The notes beneath the pieces were generated by a model that made no database searches, had not been told where the DNA came from, and saw nothing but the letters and a program-made list of their open reading frames with translations. From contig NC_043009.1 of NCBI RefSeq assembly GCF_006345805.1, forward strand, positions 61,938,001 through 62,002,000: a DNA stretch of 64,000 nucleotides, written 5' to 3'. Made by a program: the position numbers and the translations under genes. This stretch comes from Octopus sinensis. Its lineage: Eukaryota. Below are positions 12,757 to 62,063 of this stretch, in pieces. Position 1 is the stretch's first letter, and each line of letters starts with the position of its first letter.

Positions 12757-12889
12757 TGCGATGCGCATTCTTCTGTCCAAGCTTCCCCGGCCATGGATCG
12801 TTGATGAGAAGAAAGACGATGGTTACACAGCATTGCACCTGGCAGCACTTAATAATCATGTGGAAGTGGCTGAGCTGCTAGTCGATCAG
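12757..12889 (+). CDS. MIB1: MIB1 coding exon (133 nt, phase 2 to phase 0), ankyrin repeat
   Basis: Pyrimidine tract plus ttgcag| acceptor; CAG|gtgagt donor; encodes [44 protein letters not shown]. Confidence 0.96.
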
Positions 12890-40622: not shown

Positions 40623-40709
40623 GGCAAAGCGAACATGGATATTCAGAATGTCAACCTACAAACTGCTTTACACCTGGCTGTTGAGAGACAACACACACAG
40701 ATTGTTCGT
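40623..40709 (+). CDS. MIB1: MIB1 coding exon (87 nt, phase 0-0), ankyrin repeat; absent from the ORF track
   Basis: tttcatcag| acceptor; CGT|gtaagt donor; encodes [29 protein letters not shown], continuing the previous exon in frame. Confidence 0.95.
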
Positions 40710-46257: not shown

Positions 46258-46386
46258 TTACTTGTTCGGGAAAAATGTAACCTGAATGTTCCGGATAAAG
46301 ATGGTGATACGCCCCTCCACGAGGCATTACGTCATCATACACTTTCACAACTTCGACAACTTCAAGATATGCAAGATGTTAGCAGG
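46258..46386 (+). CDS. MIB1: MIB1 coding exon (129 nt, phase 0-0)
   Basis: T-rich tract plus cccag| acceptor; AGG|gtaagg donor; encodes [43 protein letters not shown]. Confidence 0.96.
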
Positions 46387-49824: not shown

Positions 49825-50759
49825 CATTATTATTTTTAGTAATTACTGTGGCTTTTATTTAATTTCTCTAATTTACTACTTTCAATTCTATTCTTTCCTT
49901 GATTCCATCACTAATCTAGAGAAATTGCTAATCTTTTCTTTTCTTTTTTTTTTTTTCTACTAAAAAAAACGAAAATATTGCCTAAATGCAGCATGCTGTG
50001 ACTTTGGTGTCTTTTGTCTAAGATTTCAGCAACAAAAATTACTAAAATGCTTCATAACTCTACCAAACACAATGAAGACAGTGTGGTTTATTTGGCGTGG
50101 CACTTCTTTTGTTTCATTTGCTTCAAAGTATCATGATATTTTCTTACATATTCTAAAATATATTTTATTTTTCTTGGAAATTTATTAAAAAAAATAAATA
50201 AATAAATAAAATAAATAAAAATAAAATAACTTCTGTTTGCAATCACAGAACAAAAGCCTTGTGTTCAAATATGCCAAAACTACATTCAGCAGTGAAAATA
50301 TATTCTAGTGCCAATACCAAGTATTACTCAACAGTGATTTCATATAAAAAGAATACATTATAAATATACTTAGAAACCCCATATAACTCCCCAAACTGCA
50401 ACAGGTCACATGTTTCTTTTACTAACAGGTCGTCTTTCTTTTCTGATCATTAAATGTGAAACTGAAGAAGCCAGCTCTGTATTTCCTGATGATTAGAAAT
50501 GTTGGTTTTAAGTATGTCTGTATTGTCTTTTTTTTTATTTTCCAAATGAAATCCTTTTAAGTTCTACTTTGTAGTGGTGTCTAGAATATCTATATTCACT
50601 GTACGTTTGGCCTAAATTGACACGACCTTTGTTGTAGGATTGCAACCTCGTTACCAAAGATACCTGATAGAAAAGTAAAGCAAAATGTCTTGAAGATTTT
50701 TATGATCCAAGATATTTGTGAGCCAAAAGAAAGAATGAGCAAAATTTCTTGTATTCTAG

Positions 50760-50852
50760 GCTGTGGAACCATTTGGGGGGATGACTTCCATTGGCAACAA
50801 CCCTGAGACTGATGCCAACTCCCAGCAAAATGCAGTTTGGAAAAGAACTACT
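50760..50852 (+). CDS. MIB1: Candidate alternative cassette exon of MIB1 (93 nt, 31 aa, phase 0-0)
   Basis: tttcttgtattctag| acceptor and ACT|gtaagg donor; open in the MIB1 frame (AVEPFGGMTSIGNNPETDANSQQNAVWKRTT); length is a multiple of 3; flanks lack recognisable TEs. No transcript evidence available. Confidence 0.5.
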
Positions 50853-53359
50853 GTAAGGGTTTATTTTCTGCACCACAGTCACTGCCAGCTGCTGCTGCTG
50901 CTGCCGTCTTTGCTTTTTTGCTTTCTTTGTCTCCATTTTCTCCTCTCTCTCTCTCTCTCCATCTCCATCATCTTCCATCTTATGCCCTGCCATACAACCC
51001 CCTCTTTTCATCATCTCTTACCACCTCCAGTTTATTGATGGTCTGCTACTTCAACTATTGTCTTACTAACTGTACTGGCACTTGGTCTGTTGCAGTAGCA
51101 CCCGGTATGCTGTCATCGTCGTTGTTGTCGTTGTTGTTGTTGTTGTTGCAGCTACTGTAGTAGCACCTAGTCTGTTGTTACTGTCGTGGTAGCAACTGCT
51201 CTGTTGCCACTGAGGTAGCCATAATTGGTCTGCCAACAGATCACCTACATCTTTCATTGCAGCTGTTACAGTTACTACAGCGACTGCAGCCATACCTGGT
51301 CTGTTGCAGCTCTTACAGCTAACCTGGCCTGTTGTTGTAACTGCTGCTGCTGCTGCACTACCACTTGTGTTTTTTTATTTGAAAGCTTTCCTTATTCTTG
51401 TTCACCCTCCCGTCTCCTCAATTGTAAACACTGCAGTTTTACTTGAACCGTCCACAACTATATTAACCACCCCAACACTACTATCACTGTTTGAAGTCTT
51501 TTTAAAAACATTTCCATTTGTTTTTCTAATTAATTAGTCAGAGGGAGAGGAATAGTGTCCATAAGGCAGGCCATCTCCCTTGTGAAATGGATAAGGTCAA
51601 TGTTCAGATTGAACTTTGGTAGGTGAGGATAGAAGAGAATAAAGAGTTTAATATAAGATTTGAGTGAAGGAGAGAGAGACAGTTGTGTCAGCTGTGCTGG
51701 GGCAGATGATGTATAAAGTGAACGAGTTCAGAAGAGAAAAGGCTCTTTTAGGGGCAATGGAAGAAGCTGAGGGAGGTTACAACAGGTTTGTGAGTCAGTG
51801 GTCAAAGCATATTGACACATGATTCTTTTAATTCATTTGAGTTCAGTCGGTTGAATGTCTTTTTGGATGTGGTCGAGGATATTTTTGTATGTTGTCACCA
51901 ATATGGAAGCAGAACTATTTTGTGGGTTCCTTGTGCACTTTGTAGAGGTTCGGCAACTGATCAGGATGGAAATGTTTCTTGCCACAAAGAGGAAACTTAG
52001 TTTGGGATACAGTTTCAACAATGAAGCCTGTTTAGCTCCAGCCCAGCCCTGATCTGGCAGATCAAACATACTCTATCTGATTATCCCGACTACATTATCC
52101 AGTGTCTTCCACTTTGAAGACAGCAAGGGTATGATTTGACTATTGTTTTCAACACTCGTGTTCTTGGAGAAAATGGAAGGTCTGGTATGTTGTACTTATG
52201 TCTGGATGATAGTTGTGTGAAAAACATTAAGGAGAAGTATTGAATGGATTCATCTGCATAGGAATATGTTGGTTAGAAGTGACAGCAATTGGCTTAATGT
52301 ACAGAAACAAGAGTGCAAGAGACATTACTGAACTTTGGGGTACACCAGAGTTGAAAGACTGTGGGCCAGAGAGAAGTAAGCTTGTTGGCACATAATGTAC
52401 TTGTGTTGTTTAATAAAAAGCTTCTGGTTTAGGAAATGTGTGGTTATGAGAGCCCAAAGGTGGTCAGTTTAGTCAAATAGGCTTTTCATTCTCGAGAGTG
52501 AGACCATTGGTATGTAACATAGCACAGTAAGCTCTGGTAGATCTGGTTTAACTAGAGACTTTATTGGTAGTCATTGAGAATAGGGAGAGAGCGAGAGAGA
52601 GAGAGAGAGACTGCAGCTGATGAAAACAGTTGTTCACTACGGCTTCTACAAACCTTGAAACGTTGGAAGTGAGAGTGATAGATTGGTTGTTGGTTGGAAC
52701 CTCATATTGCTGGCTGTTCCTTTTGGGAAGGGAACACTTCTTTTACTTAATTGTACTTAAAATATTTTCTAAAATTTTATTTGTTTATTTGTAATTATTG
52801 TTTGTTGTATTAAAGTTTTACTAAATTCATTAAATCCCCAAAACAGACCAGGTGATTAATAATTCATATTATAATTCTGAATAATTTAGGTATATTTACT
52901 ATATGCAGTCAATTTGTTTAATTGTACATCATTTGCTGTTGCTATTTCATCACTCTGAACTTAGTTTTCATATTGTCTTATAGTACTATCAGATTCTGTC
53001 CATTAGTTTGCCTGCAATCATTACTCTTGAGCTGTATATGCGACTATTTTATTTTTTGCTTAGGAGTCCAGGTGGAGGGTAAAGTTAGACACAAGGGCCC
53101 AGGTCTGAGAGGGTTAAGTTTAGCAAATATAGTGGTTAATTATAAAACCAATATCACACTTACTTGATTATATTTATCAGCAGAGTATGAGCTCAACAAA
53201 ATAGCGTTTATTGTATGATGTTGATCAGACTATAAAATGTTGGCCTCACAAAAAAAAAAAAAAGTGGTGTGAAGCATAGTGAGATGTGTCCAAAGTTTAC
53301 ATCTTTTTATGTAACTGTCCATGGAGTTTAGGTTACAATAAAACAGTGTTGATGAATAT

Positions 53360-58260: not shown

Positions 58261-58453
58261 TGTATTTTCTGGCATACAAGTCAAATTCTTCAGACCAAAA
58301 TTTACATCCGAAAAAGGTAGGTCAACTTATACACAAAGATGATTTTGGAGAACCAAAAGTTCCATGTAAAATGCAGCAAAATTTGGGAAGATAATGATGA
58401 TGTTTGAATGTTTACACTATATACAACATTGATTTGTATGCTGGAAAATACAG
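58261..58453. mobile_element. pogo/Tigger-like MITE
   Basis: TA-flanked TIRs TGTATTTTCTGGCATACAAGTCAA / TTGATTTGTATGCTGGAAAATACAG. Confidence 0.7.
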
Positions 58454-61881: not shown

Positions 61882-62063
61882 CTTCTGATGGGCTTAGGAA
61901 CCCCAGGAGGCGACAAGAAATCTAGTGCCTCTATTGCTTGCTTTCTAGCTGCCAGTGGAGCAGATCTAAATATTAAGAACAAAAAGGGGCAGTCCCCTCT
62001 TGATCTCTGTCCAGACCCTAATTTATGCAAGGCTCTTACCAAGTGCCACAAGGAAAGGAACAG
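61882..62063 (+). CDS. MIB1: MIB1 coding exon (182 nt, phase 0 to phase 2), last ankyrin region before the RING fingers
   Basis: gttgcag| acceptor; AG|gtaagt donor; encodes [60 protein letters not shown]. Confidence 0.96.

What the first reader, a model, noticed from the sequence alone, without database searches (positions are those of the whole stretch)
50760..50852. Candidate hidden 31-aa cassette exon in MIB1 at the ankyrin-stack insertion site
Seen: AG/GT-bounded 93-nt segment, phase 0-0, stop-free in the MIB1 frame (AVEPFGGMTSIGNNPETDANSQQNAVWKRTT), with a short weak pyrimidine tract and a GTAAGG donor, lying between the exons ending DMQDVSR and starting LLMGLG. Recalled: human MIB1 has an 11-aa stretch (VDAAWEPSKNT) at exactly this junction, while Drosophila Mib1 lacks it; the candidate ends in the loosely similar NAVWKRTT. 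Inference: a lineage-specific, probably regulated exon that lengthens a loop in the ankyrin region of a Notch-ligand E3 ligase.
Basis: partly seen in the sequence, partly recalled or inferred. Interest (0 to 1): 0.8.

Follow-up and report, generated by a model that had tools for sequence, protein, structure and literature searches.

The report
Real, already annotated octopus MIB1 exon
This is a real 93-base optional exon of the octopus gene for the ubiquitin ligase MIB1, spliced in RNA reads, shared with argonaut and cuttlefish and already listed in public gene annotations; it adds 31 residues to a predicted floppy loop and likely only fine-tunes the protein.

Summary
The exon is real, but it is not hidden. 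Raw RNA-seq reads join 46386>50760 and 50852>61882 in 2 of the 3 raw-read runs laid on it (5+10 and 20+9 reads; the third run, another organism, laid nothing). RefSeq/GenBank already hold with/without pairs for Octopus sinensis, O. vulgaris, O. bimaculoides and Sepia pharaonis, and an included form for Argonauta. Octopus and cuttlefish peptides are 19/31 identical at equal length, against 93% for the rest of the protein. No related insert was found in 41 named non-cephalopod mollusc proteins. Exon depth is 0.17 and 0.42 of the next exon, which fits frequent skipping. My own lays showed no skip-junction read. The insert sits at the end of the long helix of ankyrin repeat 9 and is predicted disordered. 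Its resemblance to the vertebrate 11-residue insert is not significant (p about 0.3), so the two are probably independent. Human MIB1 needs no ankyrin domain for Notch signalling in a reporter assay, so a Notch-switch role is doubtful. Tissue regulation and function are untested. Verdict: an ordinary, conserved, already annotated cassette exon.

The parts
12757..12889 (+). MIB1 coding exon (ankyrin region), constitutive
   Evidence: tblastn of Octopus MIB1 proteins; splice sites
40623..40709 (+). MIB1 coding exon (ankyrin region), constitutive
46258..46386 (+). Upstream flanking exon; encodes the start and the long first helix of ankyrin repeat 9; phase-0 donor GTAAGG
   Evidence: loose ends of reads match its 3' end; helix 718-741
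50730..50759 (+). Weak 3' splice site of the cassette exon (pyrimidine fraction 0.44, TAG acceptor)
50760..50852 (+). 93-nt in-frame cassette exon; 31 residues, 743-773 of the 1034-residue isoform
   Evidence: junction reads; RefSeq/GenBank isoform pairs; single match in the genome
50853..51152 (+). Donor GTAAGG followed by a YGCY/CTG-rich tract, a possible Muscleblind-type enhancer (lead only)
   Evidence: 12 YGCY in 300 nt; 3 of 213 tiles of the window reach 12, median 3; the four constitutive exons have 1-2
58281..58316 (+). Second 36-nt in-frame segment annotated only in O. vulgaris; lies inside a dispersed repeat; no junction support here
61882..62063 (+). Downstream flanking exon; rest of the loop, second helix of repeat 9 and repeat 10

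Best explanation
It is an in-frame cassette exon of MIB1, spliced in RNA reads and shared by octopuses, argonaut and cuttlefish, that likely arose in the coleoid ancestor and adds 31 predicted-disordered residues to the loop after the long helix of ankyrin repeat 9. A weak acceptor likely makes skipping the default. The YGCY-rich tract behind the donor may raise inclusion in some tissues through Muscleblind-type proteins (inferred, untested). Both isoforms are predicted to keep the ankyrin fold. The ligand-binding and catalytic ends are untouched, so both would remain active Notch-ligand ligases. The insert most likely tunes partner binding, localisation or turnover of the ankyrin scaffold through its two conserved ends, rather than switching the enzyme on or off.
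For: Shown: junction reads X21 5+10, X22 20+9, and contigs in X7. Isoform pairs differing by exactly these 31 residues in O. sinensis/O. vulgaris, O. bimaculoides and Sepia pharaonis. Full-length Logan proteins on 3.7-4.1 kb contigs with (P0131, P0133) and without (P0130, P0132) the insert; these must be spliced transcripts, and P0133 equals P0130 plus the insert. Depth ratios 0.17 and 0.42. Conservation is 19/31, shuffle p 0.0002, concentrated at the ends (5/7 and 11/15; middle 3/9). AlphaFold: helix 718-741, then pLDDT 25-33 over the insert, second helix 787-797; the ankyrin part matches human 8V0E with TM 0.96, rmsd 1.5 A. Paper: repeat 9 has an atypically extended helix, and the ankyrin domain is nearly dispensable in a Notch reporter. 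YGCY downstream of an exon marks Muscleblind-activated exons (PMC5041496 passages).
Against: No skip-junction read was seen directly: the loose-end table was filled by repeat reads (420 rows not shown). Tissues of the runs are not given. The YGCY cluster is partly a CTG microsatellite in a microsatellite-rich genome, and its conservation could not be checked. The same loop also scores low in the skip model (727-758 under 50) and the alignments were shallow (38 and 35 rows; mean pLDDT 56), so low confidence does not prove disorder. The exon evolves faster than the rest of the protein (3 of 19 Octopus-Argonauta differences fall in it). No dN/dS was possible. Nautilus and named squid sequences were not retrieved.
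Confidence: 0.7

Rival explanations
1. Tolerated, nearly neutral exon: it was fixed because this loop accepts any in-frame insert, and inclusion is unregulated leak-through.
For: The site carries unrelated inserts of 1-17 residues in vertebrates, chelicerates and amphioxus. A repeat-derived 36-nt segment was also annotated here in O. vulgaris. The ankyrin domain is nearly dispensable in the Notch reporter. The exon changes faster than the rest of the protein.
Against: Length and frame are kept, with 61% identity between octopus and cuttlefish and 6 of the last 7 residues identical. Inclusion of 17-42% is high for noise. It is single-copy, not repeat-derived.
Confidence: 0.17
2. Tissue-specific switch of Notch signalling: inclusion changes Delta/Jagged ubiquitination in neural or muscle cells.
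For: Weak acceptor, downstream motif cluster and differing ratios between two samples. Alternative splicing is highest in octopus neural tissue (PMC9699675 passage).
Against: The insert is outside the MZM/REP ligand-binding region and the ccRING3 catalytic region. Deleting the whole ankyrin domain gives only a small drop in reporter activity. The sample difference is weak (p 0.10 when mates are halved).
Confidence: 0.08
3. The octopus and vertebrate inserts descend from one ancient insert that other lineages lost.
For: Same junction; both contain a tryptophan near the end, and phmmer aligns these ends.
Against: Similarity is no better than shuffles (p 0.27 and 0.34). 40 of 41 named non-cephalopod mollusc proteins, the insects retrieved, echinoderm and coral have no insert (hand count). 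18 of 20 distinct non-coleoid inserts begin with valine, as read-through of a GT donor would give (inference), whereas this one is a separate exon 4.4 kb away. The vertebrate insert is present in 62 of 67 vertebrate-type proteins, so it looks constitutive.
Confidence: 0.05

Closest known systems
RefSeq/GenBank MIB1 isoform pairs: O. sinensis XP_029643860.1 / XP_029643861.1, O. bimaculoides XP_014787470.1 / XP_014787471.1, O. vulgaris CAI9732164.1 / CAI9732165.1, Sepia pharaonis CAE1285820.1 / CAE1285817.1; Argonauta hians GAB1601619.1
   Same: The same exon at the same junction; the peptide is identical in the three Octopus species.
   Different: These are automatic annotations. No paper on the exon turned up in the searches.
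Vertebrate MIB1 10-12 residue insert in ankyrin repeat 9 (human structure 8V0E)
   Same: Same junction and same loop after the extended helix.
   Different: Shorter, apparently constitutive (62 of 67), no significant sequence likeness, probably made by donor shift rather than as a separate exon (inferred).
Frame-preserving cassette exons in disordered loops, including Muscleblind-activated exons
   Same: Symmetric phase 0-0, weak acceptor, serine/asparagine/glycine-rich peptide, YGCY tract downstream.
   Different: Factor binding and tissue pattern are not tested; at 93 nt it is too long for a neural microexon (limit of about 27 nt recalled).

Membership tests
MIB1 (mind bomb 1) orthologue | Flanking exons match MIB1 ankyrin repeats 9-10; full protein has MZM/REP, ankyrin and RING regions | tested here: met
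Cassette exon | Spliced to both flanking exons in RNA | tested here: met
   5+10 and 20+9 reads; contigs in X7
Cassette exon | Also skipped in RNA | tested here: met
   Indirect: isoform pairs and transcript-derived Logan proteins lacking it; depth ratio 0.17 and 0.42. A direct skip-junction read was not displayed.
Cassette exon | Frame-preserving with canonical AG/GT sites | tested here: met
Tissue-regulated exon | Inclusion differs reproducibly between tissues or stages | tested here: inconclusive
   Two samples of unknown tissue; p 0.006 on reads, 0.10 halved
Muscleblind-activated exon | YGCY cluster in the downstream intron | tested here: met
   (12 in 300 nt; 3 of 213 tiles reach 12); partly a CTG repeat
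Muscleblind-activated exon | Binding by, and dependence on, Muscleblind | not testable with these tools
   needs CLIP, knockdown or a minigene
Homologue of the vertebrate insert | Significant sequence similarity and continuous distribution | tested here: not met
Repeat-derived (exonised) exon | Overlap with a dispersed repeat | tested here: not met
   1 match in the genome for 50640-50880 (the search skips very common words). The 36-nt segment does meet this feature.
Exon under purifying selection | dN/dS below 1 and conserved intronic flanks | not tested
   No DNA of related species was obtained; only protein-level conservation

The most novel reading that the evidence does not exclude
Coleoid cephalopods invented a Muscleblind- or Nova-controlled MIB1 exon that gives nerve or muscle cells an isoform with a new docking motif on ankyrin repeat 9. 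Vertebrates, chelicerates and coleoids each extended this same loop independently, marking it as a functional surface that explains why the Notch-dispensable ankyrin domain is conserved.
Probability: 0.15. Interest if true: 0.55.

Novelty: already known. Interest (0 to 1): 0.25.

Why it matters
The exon itself is already in public annotations, so finding it adds little. What seems unremarked is that it is conserved across octopods and cuttlefish and that three animal lineages separately lengthened the same loop. The role of the MIB1 ankyrin domain is an open question (bioRxiv 10.1101/2024.03.01.582834), and a natural with/without pair offers a ready test of it.

Tried and rejected
Search with cuttlefish-type residues 738-777: 0 of 4 candidates scored, and even the Argonauta protein was missed, so the search is too weak to show absence. 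Search of 50%-cluster representatives with the 31-residue peptide: 2 hits, both unrelated tandem-repeat proteins with no matched stretch; rejected. Run search: no RNA holder listed on record; share values were not used as evidence. X20 laid 0 reads and X24 had no depth on the downstream exon: no test. The second lay was meant to count skip and inclusion reads at 61882, but repeat reads crowded them out. No A-to-G differences were listed in the exon. Supplements of PMC9699675: no MIB1 mention in the text held; the annotation archive was cut and the PDF was not searched; it may hold tissue-level isoform data. Supplements of the bioRxiv structure paper were not seen and may show which loop residues are unmodelled. 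Earlier scan notes: nothing. No complex prediction was run, as no partner is claimed.

Full report
Observation. The segment is as described: TAG acceptor, 93 nt at 50760-50852, stop-free, GTAAGG donor, between phase-0 exon ends at 46386 and 61882. The flanking exon is MIB1 (best solved-structure match human MIB1 ankyrin domain 8V0E, E 2.5e-35). Sequence features alone would not have singled it out: 29 comparable in-frame AG..GTRAG segments lie in the same 15.5-kb intron, and its acceptor is the weakest of the MIB1 exons in the window (pyrimidine fraction 0.44 vs 0.74-0.85).

It is a real exon. Four of the 24 runs listed were laid on 50300-50900. In X21 and X22 (raw RNA-seq) depth is almost confined to the exon. 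Loose ends before it read as the end of the upstream exon (5 and 20 reads) and loose ends after it read as the start of the downstream exon (10 and 9 reads), at 99-100% agreement. X7 contigs show the same two joins. X20, another organism, laid nothing.

It is already annotated. The peptide found one protein, Argonauta hians MIB1 (E 1.4e-8). Its cluster holds O. sinensis X1/X2, O. bimaculoides X1/X2 and O. vulgaris pairs of 1034 and 1003 residues that differ by exactly this peptide. A Sepia pharaonis pair of 400 and 369 residues differs the same way. Full-length proteins from Logan contigs of 3.7-4.1 kb occur with and without the cuttlefish-type insert; since the gene spans more than 49 kb in this window alone, these are spliced transcripts (inference).

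It is skipped. The evidence is the isoform pairs above and read depth: the exon has 0.17 (X21) and 0.42 (X22) of the depth of the downstream exon. The two samples differ at p 0.006 counted as reads and 0.10 if mates are halved, and their tissues are not given, so regulation is hinted at, not shown. I did not see a skip-junction read directly: reads from a repeat filled the loose-end table.

Evolution. Octopus and cuttlefish inserts are both 31 residues and 19/31 identical (shuffle p 0.0002), against 941/1008 for the rest of the protein. The ends are conserved (5/7 and 11/15) and the middle is not (3/9). Argonauta has one extra residue. Of 41 named non-cephalopod mollusc proteins with both anchors, 40 have no insert and one Lymnaea prediction has an unrelated 13 residues (hand count). 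Nautilus and named squid were not retrieved. The octopod-decapod split of roughly 270 million years is recalled, not from a call. Vertebrates (62 of 67 proteins), chelicerates and some amphioxus isoforms carry other inserts at the same junction; 205 of 230 proteins had both anchors and were counted. The vertebrate insert is no more like the octopus one than shuffles are (p 0.27 and 0.34). Of 20 distinct non-coleoid inserts 18 begin with valine, as expected from reading through a GT donor; this origin is inferred. The simplest reading is independent lengthening of one tolerant loop at a shared intron position.

Structure. In the AlphaFold model of the included form the ankyrin stack is confident (mostly above 90) and matches 8V0E (TM 0.96 by target, rmsd 1.5 A). 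A long helix (718-741) ends at the exon junction, the insert (743-773) scores 25-33, and the repeat's second helix follows at 787-797. The skip model has the same stack, and its shorter loop is also low in confidence. The rest of both models is poor (mean pLDDT 56). The structure paper (bioRxiv 10.1101/2024.03.01.582834; I read parts 1-3 of 5: abstract to discussion and part of the methods) describes ten repeats with an atypically extended helix in the ninth. It models residues from 428 to 794, yet the chains hold only 342-344 residues, so about 23 internal residues are unmodelled, plausibly this loop (inference). It also reports that deleting the ankyrin domain only slightly lowers DLL4-Notch reporter activity, and suggests the domain serves other partners.

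Mechanism. Shown: inclusion, frame, position and conservation. Strongly supported: skipping. Inferred: the weak acceptor favours skipping; the tract behind the donor (12 YGCY in 300 nt, reached by 3 of 213 tiles, vs 1-2 behind the constitutive exons) may let Muscleblind-type proteins raise inclusion, in line with their conserved RNA map (PMC5041496, passages only), although the tract is partly a CTG repeat; both isoforms stay active ligases, and the insert tunes scaffold interactions through its conserved ends. I put this at 0.7, a tolerated neutral exon at 0.17, a Notch switch at 0.08 and deep homology with the vertebrate insert at 0.05.

A second insert. O. vulgaris annotations add 12 residues from 58281-58316. 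This lies in a dispersed repeat (40 of 40 scored candidates match, 1790 candidates). No 58316>61882 joint was listed in X21, X22 or X23, and reads leaving the 93-nt exon went to 61882. It is probably rare exonisation of a repeat.

Literature. Searches found no paper on this exon; the library lacks most subscription journals. PMC9699675 (passages and part of the supplements) and PMC10970066 (passages) do not discuss it. Other papers were seen as listings only.

Verdict. Its conservation in coleoids and the repeated use of this loop are worth a note. Interest 0.25.

Noticed in passing
window:58281-58316: 36-nt in-frame segment annotated as a second MIB1 insert in O. vulgaris only. It sits at the start of a dispersed repeat of about 200 nt behind a T-rich tract; no junction reads in three runs.
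   Followed up: partly
window:59245-59450: Very highly represented repeat in RNA runs (depth above 1000 from other copies), SINE-like.
   Followed up: no
window:28071-28637 (- strand): 189-codon stop-free frame that resembles a decayed Tc1/mariner-type transposase fragment (resemblance recalled, not searched).
   Followed up: no
window:23569-23877 (+ strand): Stop-free frame that resembles a LINE reverse-transcriptase fragment (resemblance recalled, not searched).
   Followed up: no
window:12890-40622: 27.7-kb MIB1 intron; the six segments mapped here cover only about 220-250 codons in 49 kb.
   Followed up: no
proteins P0020, P0026, P0027, P0032, P0075, P0081, P0117, P0229-P0233: Scorpion, spider and similar unnamed MIB1 proteins carry their own 13-17 residue insert at the same junction, all starting with valine-glycine.
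   Followed up: partly
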